Assembly: GCA_002256025.1 (NCBI GenBank)
Contig: NKIB01012257.1
Coordinates: 1 to 64,000 of the forward strand
Origin: Asterionella formosa
Taxonomy: Eukaryota
DNA length: 64,000 nucleotides
Direction of reading: 5' to 3'
Part shown: piece by piece, positions 36,419-64,000 of the stretch
Position numbering within the stretch: the stretch's first letter is position 1
Layout of the letters: each line of letters opens with the position of its first letter
The notes under the pieces: generated by a model
What the model was told of the DNA's origin: nothing
The model's database searches: none
Seen by the model: the letters and a program-made list of their open reading frames with translations, nothing else
Translations under genes and position numbers: made by a program

Positions 36419-36470
36419 GGGGAAATGGCTTAGTGGTTAGCACACATTCTGTGGTTGCGGATTCCATTGG
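36419..36470 (+). mobile_element. tRNA-derived SINE-like head (degenerate)
   Basis: A-box TGGCTTAGTGGTTAGC followed by TCTGTGGTTGCGGATTCC, resembling 61484-61545. Confidence 0.4.
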
Positions 36471-36761
36471 CTGCTTCCAGCATTCTCCACCTATCTTTTT
36501 CATGTAGTCCTTCGGTTTCCAGCCGGGTGCGACTGAAAAAAAGACAGGTCTCGTTCTACTGTACAGACGAACAAATCCGGTATTAACAATTGCTTGTTTC
36601 CATTGAACATGTGGGCATGAGTGCGATTATTGGATAGCGTTAACATACTACAAATTTAATTTCAGTTTAGATGTCACTCACAGTCAAATGAGTCGACTTT
36701 GATGTACCAAGCTCTCAATAAAGACACATTACTATTCTGATTGTAATGACCCAGAAAATAG

Positions 36762-39502
36762 GCTATTCAGAGGAAGACCGATACTTGAATTGAATGATCA
36801 ATGGTTGTACACCTTTGATCAGTAATTGTGAGATAGACATGAGTCTAGTATCCATGAAAAAAATGAATGGAATACAACAACATGCATCATTCAATTGAAG
36901 AGCGCATTTGTCGATGTCCTGGCATTGGAAGCGGTTCTACACCAGCGCTTTGAGCTTCACAATAAATACAGCGTATGCAATGAGCTACAAACACATGAAA
37001 GAATCAACATAAACAACAAGAAACTCAACAAGCTTGACAAAATGGCTGGAATAAGATGCATTATTCATTCAAGAAAAGTCATGATGATCATGTCACCACA
37101 TTTCATTTTGATCCAAACAGATACTAAAGCTGCATAATATCATCAGAGTCTGTCATTAAAACCACAAAAGGCAAGGCAAACAAATGGGAGGCAAATAAAT
37201 GCCTCATTAAAAGATCAGACCAAGCCATCTGCCTTCTCCTCAGTCATCAAGATATGGGGACAGATGAACTCACAAGTGCCACCAGAATATGGCATTTACA
37301 ACACACATAATTTCCCCTACTCTCATTCGAGAGAGTGTATCCACCCTTTCCCCGCCTTGTAGCGCCCAAAGTCACCACATTTGTTGGGTTGATACTGGGT
37401 AGGTTAAGATTTTTATACAACCTAGGCTGTCAATGCCAGGAAGCGCCATGCGGGCTACCCTACTTTCTTGAGTAGTAGTCTTAAGGCGCTTAATAAATGA
37501 AGTTAACTAATGGATGTTCCTATAAACAATGCAAACAGTCAGTTTGATTATTCAAACTGAACACCAACTAGTTTTAGTAACTCACAGTAAGAATATAGAA
37601 ACGAAAAAGAGACAAACGTCTCTATCTATAGCCTTCTTTGTCTAACAATACTAGATCTATTGTCTACAAAAGGTAATAATTTAACACGTTGATAAATGGA
37701 TCTAAGTTTTAAACAACATGTCTACAGATATTTCTGAAGAAAAGTATGCATGAGGCTTATCAAGTTTGATGGGAACGAAACAAACTAGTATCAGTGGAGT
37801 GTGAAAACGCTTGCTTTTGCCAACAAAGCCAGAGGACAACAAGAACCCATCATGCTCTGACAACAACTATGAAGTCGAGACGGACAAGGGAGGAATCAAG
37901 GCAACCTAGAAGGACAACGACAAGGCATACCAGCTGCACCGGAATCGCCTTCGGACTTGTGAATCAAACGAAAACGAAGAAATTGATTGATGGCCACCAT
38001 GCATACATGGCGTGGAAGAACCTTGAAGTAAGAGATGTCCCCCATTCTGTGTCGGACCTGATTCAGTTGCTTGTCAAGCAAATTCAACAAGTGCATACTA
38101 AATGACAGCTCCTATGATCCAGACGAATGGTTCATCAAGCTTGACCTAATTCAAAGCAAGATGATGACGATCAATCCATCATTCGAGAAGAAGGGGGAGA
38201 TGGAAATCATTGCAAACGTAATTGACAAGCTTCCAGTGGAATACAGCTATGTTTTGACTGTCATCGAGAGTAGTATGACAACAATCAGCCTCAACAAACA
38301 ACAAATCAAGAGCAAGATCCAAGCGTTCTACAATGGAGCGAAGCACAAAAGGGATCGCTCTAGCTATTTACACAGATGTACAAAGGAATCTGCAAGAATT
38401 GCGGCAATCAAGGGGAGGGCACACTTGCATCGATCAAAAACGAATGCAAATGGAAGGAACGAAAAATATGAATTTAATGTTGTTATAATTAAAATAAATA
38501 TGCCAGGCATATTGTAAGAGACTGGCTTGAAGCGAAAGGTGCAAGGCACAGTGAGAAGAAAAAGGAATCTGACATGTATGTTGGAATATGCAAAGAAACT
38601 ACAGACATGACAACAACTACTACCACTCCTATGGGTTTGTTTTGTATTTACCATGGAAGACAAGGGGTTCAAAATGTACCAACTGGTTTTTCTATGTTTC
38701 CCAGCCTATGATTTAGTTACTAGGCAGAGTGGGTTGGGCTACAATTCGGATACCTAGACAAAAATTAATCCCTAGTAGTAAAAGTTTCAAATGTGTCATA
38801 CTTGCTTGTTGCTTGGCTACAGTCACAACCACACTGGGGTTACATACCGCATGTACAACATGGCTTCGAAAAAAGCGTTTAATACTAGATATCTTAAATG
38901 GGCTGACTGGCATGGAAATGTCAAACCTACAGCAGACATGGATGAGGAATTTGACACTCCTCCCGACAAACTGGGTGGCACTACACCACTGCTACAAATT
39001 ATACTACAAAATCTACTAAGCTAGTGCATGATAGCAACAGGCTTTGTGACTTCGCCTCCACCTATATGCTCAGGCACCCATCAGCAAAGGTGTTCAAAAA
39101 AAGTGAGTATGACAAGAGTATGCACTACAAGGAGGGCCTTATTGTGGTGAAGGACCACATGCAGATGCCAGGTGTCGATTTTACAGATCATTTGCATTTG
39201 TGGTTATAGACACTGGCATAAATATTGTATTCAGAAGACCGATAGTTTGAATTGAATGATCAATGGTTGTAAACCTATGATAAGTTAGTGTGAGATAGAC
39301 ATGAGTCTAGTATCTAGGAATGATTGTTCCTATAAATGCAAACAACATTTGGAGATATAGTTTGCTTGATTATTCAAACTGAGCAAAGTAGTGTTAGTAA
39401 CTTACAGTAAGAACATCATAGAAATGAAAGGTAAATAAATGTCTCTACTATCTATAGCTTCTTTGTCTATGATAGATATATCTAAAAGGTAATACTTTAA
39501 CA
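36762..39502 (+). mobile_element. Decayed, internally deleted Ty1/copia LTR retrotransposon; 3' LTR ~39226-39502, 5' LTR split (~36762-36871 + 37515-37686)
   Basis: Diverged direct repeats both ending AAAAGGTAATA.TTTAACA. Gag relics IKFDG…QWSVKTLAFA, AFGLV…AYMAWKNL, DPDEWFIKL. Integrase C-terminal LLGYSHNHTGVTYRMYN. RT start YKEGLIVVKDHMQMPGVDFT. Integrase precedes RT, which is the copia order. Confidence 0.85.
36872..37508. mobile_element. 637-bp insertion into the 5' LTR, flanked by AATGGA; possibly a 5'-truncated non-LTR element
   Basis: Absent from the 3' LTR. AATGGA at 36866-36871 and 37509-37514, and AATAAA near the right end. Confidence 0.55.
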
Positions 39503-52180: not shown

Positions 52181-53970
52181 GAAATTTTTTAAATTTTGAG
52201 GGTAAATTTTGTGGATTTTTCCACCTTGGAACCTCCTTACCTGCTCTGTCTTTTTCTTTACGATCTAACTTCTTTGTTGACGATGAATTCTCGCACTTAG
52301 ATGCGATCTTAATCTGATGAGTCGCTATTGTTGCTCATAATTCATTTTGTGTATATATATGTACTGCTATCAAATAAATTTTTAAGTACCTGGTACCCTT
52401 TACTAGGGCTCTACTGGTGTGGAGAATGTTGAGTCGCACCAGGGCGTACAGCGCCCTTGAGGAGACCTCTGTAGGGCAAAGTTACATGGGGGCGGAAGGA
52501 AGGCAGGGGAGATTGCAGCGGATAAGATACTGGGTGATTTTGCCTTGGCCATGGTGTTTGCACTGGTGGATTTGTCGGGTTAGGCGGAGTTTGGCAGTGT
52601 GGTACATAGCTAGCCAGGCTATCATGGTGGAGTGATGTAATAAGCTTTGAGATAAGGGAAGACCAAAATAGATGGCTCTGTTCAACTATGGAAACTTTAT
52701 CATTTGTAGAATAGACAGCTGTTACGTCAGAAATTAGTTTTGGAAGGAGTTTTTGGCGAGCCATAGCTAGCAATGGTTGCACCATGGATGAAGTCATTTT
52801 TGTTAACTCTGGGACTCCGGTCCTGATTTACACACCGGTATATTCCTTTGTGCATGTAGTGATATTGTAACTACAATCAGCAACGTAGATTCATTATGAA
52901 CGTGTAAACAAAAGCCATGAGTATACATGTTGGCATACTCCTAACTTATATATGAGTTTTGGCATTGAGCAAAATTATATCTAAATTCAGCAACGTAGAT
53001 AAAGTGTAAACGTTTAAATATCATTTTTTTTAATGGAACTTTATCAATCTGGCGCCGATTCCCATTTAATTCAAATATTCAAATGGACACTCGAATCATG
53101 AGAATTCATAGTGGGAAACTCCCTGTTCCACGCCGTTTTTACAACCCTAGCGATATTTTCTCCGAACTAGGGTTAATTCGGGGCCGCAACCTTAATGTAG
53201 ACATACATGCAGACATCAAAGAATACACTAGTTGTTCTATATGCGACTAGAATATTCGCATTGCGGAAATAATCACAAATTCCTTTGAGTAACGTATTGT
53301 GTATATTGCAACACTTTGGTGCAAATATGATAATCTGTTTTATAGCCCATTCCTATTCCCCTTTTCAAGGCAAGTATTCATTGTGCTGCCTGCCAGCATT
53401 AGGTTTAGTTTATGGCTGTAATTAAGAAAAAGTGAAATTTGACAGAGTAAGGTCAATTGCATAGTGAGAAGGTTATGCAGCAGAATACAAACAGGAAGGA
53501 GTAAGTGACACTTTTACACTGCGCTTCATTCATAGCAGGAAAGTCGAGATGATAATAAGTATCCATGATTGATACACAAATGTTGACAACTGGTAATTTA
53601 GGCTCTGTCCTGTCCTTCATAGAGTCAAACATAGGCAAATCAGGCAGGAATCTTAGTGAAACAATGGCAGGAGAGAAAAACGTTTTACACTCAGGTATTG
53701 TACAGCTGTCAGACTGTGATTCTTGCCAATCACATTTGATACTTAAGCAGGAGAGTTACGACTGCGACTAATGGAATAGCTCCACCACCCTATTTATGTA
53801 AATTCAGTGCTTTTATGAACACAAAACAATGATGGACTGAAAGGCGAAAACGAAATTTAAACAAACTTGGCCATGAATGTACTGGTACTAGATGCAGAGG
53901 TTGACCTCAACTTGATTGTCCTCGTCCCAATACGAGAAAGAAAATTGTTAATATACATGTCATGGTTGCG

Positions 53971-61469: not shown

Positions 61470-61840
61470 TCGCTCAGTGGTTAGGGAATAGCTTAGTGTT
61501 TTAGCAGGTTGCCTTTGATCTGAGGTTGTGAGGTTCGACTCCCGCAATTTTTTTGAGAATTAATGGTTGGGTTCGACTCCCACACTCCTTACTGTCCTGC
61601 ACGGTCTTGCCTGGTGCGCAAGAAACAGTGGCTTTGCTCCCCTACAAGCAGGCCGCCTTCTTAGGTCGGAGTTTCCCCTAATGCTGTGGCTAAAATGATC
61701 ACCTTTCGCGAAAGGTGAATGGGGACGCATCTACGCTAACAGAACTAGGGAAGCACAGGTCTTGTCGGCAAGTAGCACAATGAAAGACTTGCATAGAAAT
61801 AAGGGAGTACGAATGGGCTATAAAACATGCTATCCTTTTA
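61470..61840 (+). ncRNA. tRNA-headed structured element (SINE-like or unknown Pol III ncRNA)
   Basis: A-box-like sequences at 61470 and 61489, B-box GGTTCGACTCC at 61532 and 61570, several nested stems in 61584-61808 and a terminal TTTT. Confidence 0.6.
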
Positions 61841-62081
61841 ATTCACTCAGTAGATATCTCCCTATTTCTCTATTTTCTGTTCACATATATTCTTAACTCT
61901 GATTGGCATTAATGCTGCTTGATTGCTTGCAAGGAAAACAAGATTTCCTAAGAGGCAGTCACAACACACTTTACCTCTTAATCGTTGTCTACGTGGCCTT
62001 GAAAAACCAAGAAGGCAGCCTAAGAATTGGAAGGGTGCAGGAAGGAAAATAAAAATCTTAATGGCATTTCCTTTGTATTAT

Positions 62082-64000
62082 CTACAGAATAATCCTGACT
62101 CTTTGCTCGCCTTCGCGCCGTTTGTCCATGGAATCAAACTTGAGGCACTCGACTGACAGTATGGATTCAAACTGGGAGGCAAAGTGAATTCCGTCTACAA
62201 TGCTGGCCTTTGCTCCAAAAGATTGTTTTAGTGGAGTCATCTCCACCTTCTGCCGCTTCCCAGCTAGATAACAATTCAGTGCGGTTTCATCAGGGGTCAC
62301 TTTCTCTTTCTGCATGGCATATACAATTTGAAGAGCAATATCTGGTCGCAGCGCTCGTCCACTAACAAATAGTAGCCCATGATAGGAGGCGACAAGAGTT
62401 AAATCCAGCGCTCTTTTGTCTCTGATACATTCTCTTCTGATCATACTCTTCCAAGCTGTTAATGCACCATTGATATCATCACCAAACAATCGGAAGACCC
62501 CATTGACAAAGCGACCATCTATTGGCACTCCTGAACGAGAAGCATTCTGGAAGAGTTCTATTGCGACTGAGGCATTGCAATTACCATATTGCAATGCCTT
62601 GGCAGCAAGAGCATAGGTCTGCGAGTTAGGTCTTGGGGCTCTGACACCAACTCCCTTACCTGAGATTTGCTTATTCATCAGGTCAAGCACAATGCGAGCT
62701 GCATCTGGGGCCGACAATGAATCAATGTGGGTGGCAAGAGAAAATTTTAGATTCTGCGATATCACATTTCCTCCTCCTACAACCATCAATTCTTGTTCCA
62801 AAACCCGAGCTGCTTCAGATGATCTAGCTTGAATCAGTGTGCTGCCATCCCCACATTTAGCAAAAGCGCCCATCAGAGCATTCCACGTACGAACATCGCC
62901 ATTTGGAAACATTTCAAACATCCAGCAGGCCGACGATATATCTCTGAGATTTCCGTAAGCAGATATTGCTGCACGAAGGACGGCATCTGTCACGTCCACT
63001 TCACACTCTATTAAGCCCACACGCATCAGCTCTGTTAGTTCTTTTTCGTCCAATGCAAACCCAGTCATAGAGGTCAAAGTATACTTGTCTGGTCGAAAAC
63101 CTGCCTCTATCAATCTCCTGTACATTTCAATTGCTTTCCCTCTGATTCCTTGATCTCCATCTTTGTCAAAAATATTTTTATATCCAGATATCATAATGTT
63201 GTAGTGACGAGTAGATGCCCTAACCTTCAAGAATTTGTCAAAGACAATTTGAGCGCTGGCCATTTCCCCAGCTCTACAGAGAGTCGTCAAAAAAGCCGCA
63301 AATGCTGACGATAGCATCTCATCATCTTGTTTCTGAACAGTAAACGTTTCCAGCATCGTTGCTAAATCTTGAGTCTTACCTGTTCTTGCCAATGGCAAAA
63401 TAACCAAATCAATTGTGTATCGATCTGGCTGAAACACGGATATGATTTCATTCAGAATAGCAAGTGCTTCTTCGTTTGTTGTTGCAACTTTAAGGCGAGC
63501 ATGATAACAATACAGCGTAGGTTCGATTCCAAGGCGCACGAGCTCTTGCCACAGTTGGTCTACCAAAGGTCGACTTGACAAATTCATGACCGTTGCAAAC
63601 GACGTTGCATCCAAAGCAATATTCCAACGTGATTGACAGCTGCTCAATATCGATATGACGTTCTCAAGTCTATCGCCTTGATCATCTAACAAGGCTGCTA
63701 GATAAGTATTGAGTGCCAGCACACTAATTTGTTCTTGCTTCGCTGTTGCCACATCTCGTAGTTGATCTAATGTCGATTCCATCCTTTGGATTCGGCCACC
63801 TTGTCGAAGTCCTTGCAGGTACGCAACATACGCAATAGAGGATGGTAAATGTTGCTGCTGTAACAAGTCTTCCATTAATTGTTGTGCAGTGTCCAACAAA
63901 CCAGCAATGGACAGCACCTTGACCAGTCGTTCCTTAATATCTACAGAATTTGGTATATCTGATATTTGTAACAATCGACCAGCATCTGATACTTGTCGTG
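62082..64000 (-). CDS. Pentatricopeptide repeat (PPR) protein, 5' end beyond the window
   Basis: PPR-like units PSSIAYVAYLQG, HYNIMISGY…GFRPDKYTLTSM, DVRTWNALMGAF, PNSQTY, VTPDETALN. The frame stays open to the window edge. Confidence 0.85.
   Translation of the reverse strand, partial: RQVSDAGRLLQISDIPNSVDIKERLVKVLSIAGLLDTAQQLMEDLLQQQHLPSSIAYVAYLQGLRQGGRIQRMESTLDQLRDVATAKQEQISVLALNTYLAALLDDQGDRLENVISILSSCQSRWNIALDATSFATVMNLSSRPLVDQLWQELVRLGIEPTLYCYHARLKVATTNEEALAILNEIISVFQPDRYTIDLVILPLARTGKTQDLATMLETFTVQKQDDEMLSSAFAAFLTTLCRAGEMASAQIVFDKFLKVRASTRHYNIMISGYKNIFDKDGDQGIRGKAIEMYRRLIEAGFRPDKYTLTSMTGFALDEKELTELMRVGLIECEVDVTDAVLRAAISAYGNLRDISSACWMFEMFPNGDVRTWNALMGAFAKCGDGSTLIQARSSEAARVLEQELMVVGGGNVISQNLKFSLATHIDSLSAPDAARIVLDLMNKQISGKGVGVRAPRPNSQTYALAAKALQYGNCNASVAIELFQNASRSGVPIDGRFVNGVFRLFGDDINGALTAWKSMIRRECIRDKRALDLTLVASYHGLLFVSGRALRPDIALQIVYAMQKEKVTPDETALNCYLAGKRQKVEMTPLKQSFGAKASIVDGIHFASQFESILSVECLKFDSMDKRREGEQRVRIIL

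What the first reader, a model, noticed from the sequence alone, without database searches (positions are those of the whole stretch)
61570..61840. tRNA-headed element with a ~225-nt multi-branched RNA body
Seen: after a T-arm (TGGG TTCGACT CCCA) the sequence folds into nested stems. These are ACTCCTT 61584 / AAGGGAGT 61801 (closing), ACTGT 61591 / ACAGT 61625 enclosing TCTTGC / GCAAGA, CCGCCT / AGGTCGG, TTCCCCTA 61673 / TAGGGAA 61746 enclosing CTGT / ACAG and a perfect TCACCTTT-CGCG-AAAGGTGA hairpin, and CAGGTCTT 61756 / AAGACTTG 61784. A TTTT follows. The segment is more GC- and CpG-rich than its flanks. I cannot assign it to a known RNA family. Inference: a SINE with a structured core, or an undescribed Pol III RNA or ribozyme. 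GAATGGGGAC and CGAATGGGC echo the HDV J4/2-P2 strand, but I could not build the full pseudoknot.
Basis: partly seen in the sequence, partly recalled or inferred. Interest (0 to 1): 0.7.

Follow-up and report, generated by a model that had tools for sequence, protein, structure and literature searches.

The report
Decayed SINE copy, not a ribozyme
This is one decaying copy of an abundant short jumping element (a SINE with a tRNA-like front and a tail borrowed from a larger retrotransposon) in a diatom-like alga, and the branched fold and ribozyme echoes seen in it are mostly chance.

Summary
The stretch is the rear 75% of one copy (61483-61839, +) of a ~363-nt interspersed repeat: 391 places carry one 20-mer, 42 of 68 full copies have ~16-bp target-site duplications. 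The last ~65 nt match the 3' ends of resident RNase H-bearing LINEs (69-72%), so those LINEs probably copy it. The listed stems exist, but the fold is no better than shuffles (z -0.52), several pairs are private mutations, paired body positions are not conserved and no HDV pseudoknot is found. The only clearly covarying pair lies in the LINE-derived tail hairpin. One oddity stays open: a T7 run, a likely Pol III terminator, sits inside the element right after the first B box. Earlier scan notes on other pieces of this genome describe what appears to be the same family. Verdict: new member of a known kind, barely described in diatoms.

The parts
61470..61483 (+). left target-site duplication (decayed)
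   Evidence: 79% identical to 61843-61856; family TSDs mostly 16 bp
61483..61839 (+). whole SINE copy, 91% identical to the family majority consensus
   Evidence: loose ends of contigs pile up at 61483 and 61839
61484..61551 (+). tRNA-Ala-derived head with A box (about 61489-61499) and first T-arm/B box (61532-61542)
   Evidence: 45 of 70 columns identical to tRNA-Ala(AGC) of locus L143, consensus 47 of 70; ARAGORN finds no tRNA in the window
61548..61554 (+). internal T7 run, a likely Pol III terminator, in place of the tRNA acceptor 3' strand
   Evidence: T>=7 in 36 of 85 and T>=5 in 67 of 85 full copies; T7 in 12 of 16 copies >=94% identical
   Evidence: direct repeat of 61532-61546, 93%; pair probabilities mostly >0.8 for consensus 40-67 with 80-108
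61592..61759 (+). SINE body of unknown origin, shared with a family that has another tail; holds small hairpins 61605-61623 and 61699-61718
   Evidence: no Rfam, MRP or LINE 5' homology found
61760..61825 (+). LINE-derived 3' tail
   Evidence: consensus 285-350 aligns to LINE termini at 69-72% over 57-67 nt
61773..61820 (+). tail stem-loop: outer stem 61773-61779/61814-61820 and inner GAAA-loop hairpin 61786-61809 (damaged in this copy at 61793 and 61802)
   Evidence: folds in SINE and LINE ends; pair 61795/61800 covaries
61836..61839 (+). terminal TTTT
   Evidence: family ends in short T runs
61843..61856 (+). right target-site duplication (decayed)
53331..53394 (-). second, 5'-truncated copy (tail only) of the same family in this window
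   Evidence: 89% over 66 nt
62082..63998 (-). neighbouring PPR-repeat protein gene; the SINE lies about 240 nt beyond its stop codon on the opposite strand

Best explanation
One inactive, neutrally decaying copy of a tRNA-Ala-derived SINE family of about 363 nt. Mechanism: (1) a source copy is transcribed from its tRNA-type internal promoter (inferred from A/B boxes; not shown); (2) the RNA's last ~65 nt mimic the 3' end of a resident RNase H-bearing LINE and fold into an outer stem plus inner hairpin (homology shown, binding inferred from stringent LINEs); (3) the LINE's endonuclease/RT copies it from the 3' end by target-primed reverse transcription, leaving ~16-bp TSDs and 5'-truncated copies (products shown, enzyme inferred); (4) inserted copies decay, CpG sites about four times faster (shown; methylation inferred). 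The body's hairpins are inherited from the source gene and not under visible selection in the copies.
For: Dispersed high copy number: 143, 139 and 391 places for three motifs, reversed-pattern controls 0; 40 other near-full-length places at 82-87% among 40 of 746 candidates scored. TSD score >=8 in 42 of 68 complete copies vs 1 of 600 mismatched flank pairs, modal length 16. Of 136 non-redundant copies 85 are full, 43 start late with the 3' end intact, 8 lack the 3' end (biased, since many were picked by a tail motif). Head 67% identical to tRNA-Ala over 70 columns. Tail matches LINE ends: 6 of 27 testable LINE loci beat all 100 shuffles, at the LINE terminus; the LINE has an RNase H-like domain and an RT-like region. 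Tail pair 61795/61800: A-U 55, U-G 40, U-A 18; 116 of 125 paired, top mutual information of all variable columns. CpG change 21.4% vs 4.9%.
Against: Pol III transcription is not shown, and an internal T7 should stop Pol III at about nt 70; the 20 tRNA genes that I took as nuclear end in T4-T6. Tail-LINE similarity is modest: E 0.034 for the consensus but E 1 for this copy with a LINE-end HMM; 21 of 27 LINE loci did not beat all shuffles; all matching LINE copies seen are broken, so the exact partner is unknown. The covarying tail pair reflects about two events in source lineages, and two source-level changes at helix ends (311 T>G in 36 of 127, 298 T>C in 13 of 120) are uncompensated. No empty insertion site was seen in three other DNA runs.
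Confidence: 0.92

Rival explanations
1. The body is a functional structured RNA domain (like CORE, V, Deu or Meta domains) kept because it helps the SINE RNA (stability, RNP assembly), even though inserted copies decay.
For: The head and body are shared by a second family with an unrelated tail (5 of 41 sampled places); several body hairpins have high pair probability in the consensus; the body is GC/CpG rich.
Against: Consensus folds no better than shuffles; no 70-nt body window below z -1.7; no compensatory source-level change in the body; 4 of 5 tail-B copies break one pair of the CGCG hairpin without compensation, the fifth has a deletion there; only 1 of 75 metagenome matches to the hairpin was a homologue, at 98% identity, so no distant relative was found.
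Confidence: 0.12
2. An HDV-like or other self-cleaving ribozyme lies in the element.
For: Two short motifs resemble the HDV J4/2-P2 strand (reader; HDV features recalled, not from a call).
Against: Strict nested-pseudoknot descriptor: 0 hits on either strand of this copy and of the consensus, 0 of 85 full copies (plus strand), 20 of 20 synthetic controls found; the relaxed descriptor hits 21 of 30 shuffles. No Rfam ribozyme at E<=5. One motif is a private mutation, the other is LINE 3'-end sequence.
Confidence: 0.02
3. A stand-alone undescribed Pol III RNA gene, or retrocopies of a cellular RNA such as RNase MRP/P or SRP RNA.
For: tRNA-type boxes and a terminal TTTT; by eye the tail motif recalled the CR-V strand of MRP/P RNA (recalled).
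Against: Copies fall into subfamilies with linked diagnostic sites and swapped tails, as SINE source genes do; the genome's own RNase MRP candidate (47.4 bits, two places) is unrelated to the element (235 and 122 of 300 shuffles score as high); this copy is 9% from the consensus with TSDs.
Confidence: 0.03
4. The family is not made by ordinary Pol III initiation at the first head: the T7 ends that transcript, and full-length RNA comes from read-through favoured by the long T-arm1:T-arm2 hairpin, or from Pol II co-transcription.
For: T7 is the source state in both tail families; host tRNA genes use T4-T6; consensus 37-110 folds with z -2.89, 2 of 500 shuffles (window picked after the fact); substitutions inside the T run are 6.8% vs 3.7% at other T positions (38 of 562 vs 253 of 6888), as expected if interrupted runs are favoured as templates.
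Against: Internal T4-T5 runs occur in mollusc and crocodilian SINEs and Pol III read-through is common (PMC4758252 passages; PMC3141230 abstract); a duplicated, self-complementary T-arm pairs with itself automatically; runs of T slip and misalign, which inflates the substitution count; no transcript ends were available (contigs only).
Confidence: 0.2

Closest known systems
tRNA-derived SINEs (SINE2 type) as defined in SINEBase (PMC3531059, section 4 read)
   Same: Under 1 kb, interspersed, over 100 copies, at least 60% identity to a tRNA over 60 nt, head-body-tail layout, subfamilies; internal duplication (quasidimeric) is an accepted feature.
   Different: [quoted passage not shown]
Stringent SINE-LINE pairs with a shared 3' stem-loop (UnaSINE/UnaL2 recalled; ZfL2 recognition in PMC4176376, abstract; plant and Chlamydomonas pairs in PMC3747384, passages)
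   Same: About 65 nt at the SINE end match the LINE terminus and fold into a stem-loop with a compensatory change.
   Different: The partner here is an RNase H-bearing diatom LINE (Ambal-like by my recall; clade not tested), similarity is only about 70%, all partner copies seen are broken, and binding is not tested.
'Putative SINE' of Phaeodactylum tricornutum (PMC5859163, passages)
   Same: SINE class reported in a diatom.
   Different: 13 copies covering 1,454 bp there, no head, tail or partner described in the passages read; hundreds of 363-nt copies here. Sequences were not compared (supplements not read).
SINE superfamilies with a shared central domain and swapped tails (CORE, V, Meta, MESC; PMC4758252 passages, others from listings)
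   Same: One head+body carries two different tails.
   Different: Sharing shown only within one genome; no conservation across species found.
HDV-like ribozymes of retroelements (recalled)
   Same: Only short motif resemblance.
   Different: No P1/P1.1/P2/P3 nested pseudoknot; motif sits at the 3' end, in LINE 3'-UTR-derived sequence.

Membership tests
tRNA-derived SINE (SINEBase definition) | short (<1 kb) interspersed, non-tandem repeat | tested here: met
   363-nt consensus, copies on many contigs with unrelated flanks
tRNA-derived SINE (SINEBase definition) | [quoted passage not shown] | tested here: met
   143, 139 and 391 motif places, controls 0; 136 non-redundant copies aligned; the fragmented assembly may count some alleles twice
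tRNA-derived SINE (SINEBase definition) | >=60% identity to a tRNA over >=60 nt | tested here: met
   47 of 70 (consensus) and 45 of 70 (this copy) to tRNA-Ala(AGC); two Ala tRNAs scored highest of 36 sequences from 29 loci of 62 matches
tRNA-derived SINE (SINEBase definition) | non-autonomous, extra body sequence unlike an RNA pseudogene | tested here: met
   no ORF of 80 aa over the element; ~175-nt body plus tail
tRNA-derived SINE (SINEBase definition) | retroposition marks: TSDs, 5' truncation | tested here: met
   42 of 68 vs 1 of 600; 43 late-starting vs 8 3'-incomplete of 136 (ascertainment-biased)
tRNA-derived SINE (SINEBase definition) | transcription by Pol III from the internal promoter | not testable with these tools
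   A and two B boxes present, but internal T7; only contigs available for RNA
Stringent SINE-LINE pair | 3' end shared with a resident LINE | tested here: met
   69-72% over 57-67 nt at the LINE terminus, 6 of 27 loci above all shuffles; alignment; weak for this single copy (E 1)
Stringent SINE-LINE pair | stem-loop in the shared tail, kept by compensatory change | tested here: inconclusive
   same layout in SINE and in 6 of 9 LINE ends by my reading; one pair with three pairing states, but about two events, and two uncompensated changes at helix ends
Stringent SINE-LINE pair | LINE ORF2 binds the tail and mobilises the SINE | not testable with these tools
   needs binding or retrotransposition assay
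HDV-like ribozyme | nested double pseudoknot P1, P1.1, P2, P3 with J4/2 C | tested here: not met
   0 strict hits, positive control 20 of 20; descriptor recalled; no Rfam hit
RNase MRP / RNase P RNA derivative | match to the family model or to the host's own gene | tested here: not met
   no Rfam match at E<=5; no similarity to the host MRP candidate; a host RNase P RNA was not sought
Conserved-domain SINE superfamily | central domain conserved across distant species | tested here: inconclusive
   shared by two tail families in one genome; one exact-pattern scan found one 98% homologue among 75 hits; no other diatom genomes were searchable
Ambal clade LINE (partner) | RT phylogeny places it in the clade | not tested
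   name recalled; RNase H-like and RT-like regions seen; searches gave no defining paper

The most novel reading that the evidence does not exclude
A high-copy diatom SINE superfamily whose source genes kept a full T7 terminator right after the first B box, followed by a duplicated T-arm that folds back over it. Full-length RNA would then need a structure-assisted Pol III read-through or a non-Pol III route, and the RNA is handed to RNase H-bearing diatom LINEs through interchangeable stem-loop tails.
Probability: 0.15. Interest if true: 0.6.

Novelty: new member of a known kind. Interest (0 to 1): 0.27.

Why it matters
As a structured RNA or ribozyme it falls away. As a SINE it is a familiar kind of element in a group where little is in print: my searches gave one paper with 13 putative diatom SINE copies and none describing a diatom SINE-LINE pair. 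The family offers insertion markers for population work in a freshwater alga, a readout of CpG decay, and a natural test of how Pol III handles a long internal T run.

Tried and rejected
Rfam at E<=5 on the region and on four other copies: only sub-threshold chance hits, none to a ribozyme. ARAGORN: no tRNA in the window. First partner candidate, the young poly(A)-ending APE-RT-zinc-finger LINE (L021 family): no similarity to the SINE (137-170 of 200 shuffles as good). Eight further RT loci were LTR-type, telomerase-like or foreign and did not match. The young RNase H LINE family L195-L199 has a different 3' end with no blastn match. No body homology to upstream parts of 18 LINE-bearing stretches; these are broken or partial, so a LINE 5'-UTR origin is not excluded. 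No LINE end was found for tail B (best E 1.9). RNase MRP origin rejected. Hairpin 18-mer: 0 hits in viral contigs; 74 of 75 metagenome hits share only the palindrome. Reads: all four runs are contigs; the RNA run covers the element deeply, but strand, ends and level cannot be read and DNA runs show the same profile, so it is no evidence of expression; no joint skipping the whole element among 15 of 16 joints shown, while contigs of X7, X8 and X11 bridge a junction of this insertion. The sigma-70 scan is irrelevant to a eukaryote. Look-up of earlier findings by sequence gave nothing. The host was not placed by phylogeny: 'diatom' rests, freshwater runs and earlier notes. Repbase and Dfam could not be searched, so a catalogued match is not excluded.

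Full report
Observation. The fold is not more than chance: z -0.52, 56 of 200 shuffles fold as well. Rfam gives nothing over the stretch at E<=5 and ARAGORN finds no tRNA.

What it is. A DNA search of the own genome (68.4 Mb) returned 746 candidates; of the 40 scored, 40 places besides the window match nearly the whole query at 82-87%, all starting near window 61483 and ending near 61839. Three motifs occur at 143 (tail, <=1 mismatch), 139 (hairpin, <=1) and 391 (second T-arm, <=2) places, reversed controls 0. I aligned 136 non-redundant copies: 85 full, 43 starting late with the 3' end intact, 8 lacking the 3' end; full copies are 80-97% identical to a 363-nt majority consensus, median 94% (many were picked through a tail motif, so the truncation ratio is biased). 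Target-site duplications scored >=8 in 42 of 68 complete copies against 1 of 600 mismatched flank pairs, modal length 16; this copy's own is decayed (79%). The head is 67% identical over 70 columns to a resident tRNA-Ala(AGC); a sister family keeps the Ala acceptor strand where this family has a T run. Contigs of four public runs pile up over 61483-61839 with loose ends at both borders, and contigs of three DNA runs bridge a junction of this insertion.

The tail. The first LINE tried, a young poly(A)-ending family, shares nothing with the SINE. Earlier scan notes pointed to an RNase H-bearing LINE. One such copy was found, and its C-terminal frame gave 100 matches. Of 30 loci fetched, 27 had enough downstream DNA; 6 beat all 100 shuffles, each aligning the SINE tail (consensus 285-359) to the LINE terminus, 69-72% over 57-67 nt in the two best (alignment). 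The LINE carries RNase H-like and RT-like regions (clusters commonest in Bacillariophyta). Support for this one copy is weak (E 1 with a LINE-end HMM; consensus E 0.034). SINE and most LINE ends fold into an outer stem and an inner hairpin.

Is the body a functional structure? The consensus folds at z -0.9 to -1.1; no 70-nt body window is below z -1.7. Non-CpG positions predicted as paired change at 5.9% (441 of 7439), unpaired at 5.0% (182 of 3662); CpG sites at 21.4% against 4.9%. That is neutral decay, and the CpG richness is simply the source sequence not yet eroded. RNAalifold on 32 copies gives a covariation term of -0.17 of -26.9 kcal/mol; of 53 pairs 10 have a double change, 9 of them in one sequence only. 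The exception is the tail pair 61795/61800: A-U 55, U-G 40, U-A 18, 116 of 125 paired. It stands for about two events in source lineages, and two other source-level changes at helix ends are uncompensated, so it is a hint. Among 41 places sampled by the second T-arm, 5 carry the same head and body with a different tail of similar layout; 4 of those 5 break a pair of the 'perfect' CGCG hairpin without compensation. Dead copies cannot show selection on a source RNA, so a role for the body is not excluded, but nothing supports it. A metagenome scan found one homologue (98%) among 75 hits.

Ribozyme and RNA-gene readings. A strict HDV descriptor (recalled) finds nothing on either strand of this copy or the consensus, nor in 85 full copies, while detecting 20 of 20 synthetic controls; a relaxed one hits 21 of 30 shuffles. 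The genome's own RNase MRP candidate is unrelated.

Mechanism. Shown: dispersal, TSDs, 3'-anchored copies, tRNA-Ala head, LINE-like terminus, neutral decay. Inferred: Pol III transcription of source copies, recognition of the tail stem-loop by the LINE protein (as shown for zebrafish L2 LINEs, PMC4176376, abstract read), target-primed reverse transcription. Confidence 0.92 for the SINE, about 0.75 that an RNase H LINE of this kind is the partner.

Open oddity. T7 at 61548-61554 follows the first B box; T>=7 is in 36 of 85 full copies, T7 in 12 of 16 copies at >=94% identity, while 20 tRNA genes that I took as nuclear (by locus GC) end in T4-T6. The two T-arms can pair across the run (z -2.89, window chosen after the fact). 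Substitutions in the run are 6.8% against 3.7% at other T positions, open to slippage artefacts. Internal T4-T5 runs are known in mollusc and crocodilian SINEs, usually followed by C (PMC4758252, passages), and Pol III read-through is common in human cells (PMC3141230, abstract); here the run is longer and followed by G. Leaky read-through is the likeliest answer.

Known and new. It meets the three SINEBase criteria (PMC3531059, section 4 read). Diatom SINEs are little described: 13 putative copies in Phaeodactylum (PMC5859163, passages; supplements not read), SINEs only as a category in Pleurosigma (PMC12803021, passages); tables of SINE-LINE pairs in PMC3747384 (passages) have no diatom term. 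Searches gave no paper on this family; Repbase and Dfam were not available. Earlier scan notes on other pieces of this genome report a ~360-nt SINE with a doubled B box, swapped tails, a LINE-like tail and a failed HDV reading; I could not compare their sequences, but my own tests agree. Verdict: new member of a known kind; interest 0.27.

Noticed in passing
window 36421-36660 (+): A copy of a sister tRNA-Ala-headed SINE family of about 240 nt with a different body and tail (73% to a copy in L171).
   Followed up: partly
window about 37290-37510 (+): A LINE-like 3' end with the same stem layout (LINE-end HMM E 0.007; 71% to L178).
   Followed up: partly
window about 52485-52804 (-): Decayed C-terminal piece of the young RNase H LINE family L195 (tblastn E 6e-11).
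   Followed up: no
L370, L371, L373, L374, L388: Family with the same head and body but another ~70-nt tail of similar stem-hairpin layout; its partner LINE was not found.
   Followed up: partly
L052, L058, L069, L075 (around 1468-1532): A tail-only SINE copy embedded in another repeat that was then itself multiplied.
   Followed up: partly
L293-L367 except L347: The 18-nt palindrome CACCTTTCGCGAAAGGTG is the core of a longer palindromic repeat (often CCCAG...CTGGG arms) in apparently prokaryotic metagenome contigs, up to four copies in 12.6 kb (L342-L345); unrelated to the SINE beyond the palindrome.
   Followed up: no
L408 and L409 (G000:C1782:5058-5287 -, C5787:567-796 +): RNase MRP RNA candidate of this alga, 47.4 bits, just under the Rfam cut-off of 50.
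   Followed up: partly
L190 1318-1639; L387; L388; L407: Copies with only one T-arm or without the T7 spacer, probably deletions between the two repeats.
   Followed up: no
L005, L190, L369, L407: Head-to-tail or closely spaced double copies of the SINE.
   Followed up: no
L111 (G000:C10287): A 1058-aa open frame that looks like telomerase reverse transcriptase (recalled from motifs; RVT_1 hit, translation).
   Followed up: no
L112 (G000:C9266, 642 bases): Short contig whose translation looks like a mammalian L1 ORF2 piece (recalled), probably contamination in the assembly.
   Followed up: no
L021 family; L195-L199: Two young LINE families: APE-RT-zinc finger with poly(A) end, and an RNase H type with a GC-rich 3' hairpin.
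   Followed up: partly
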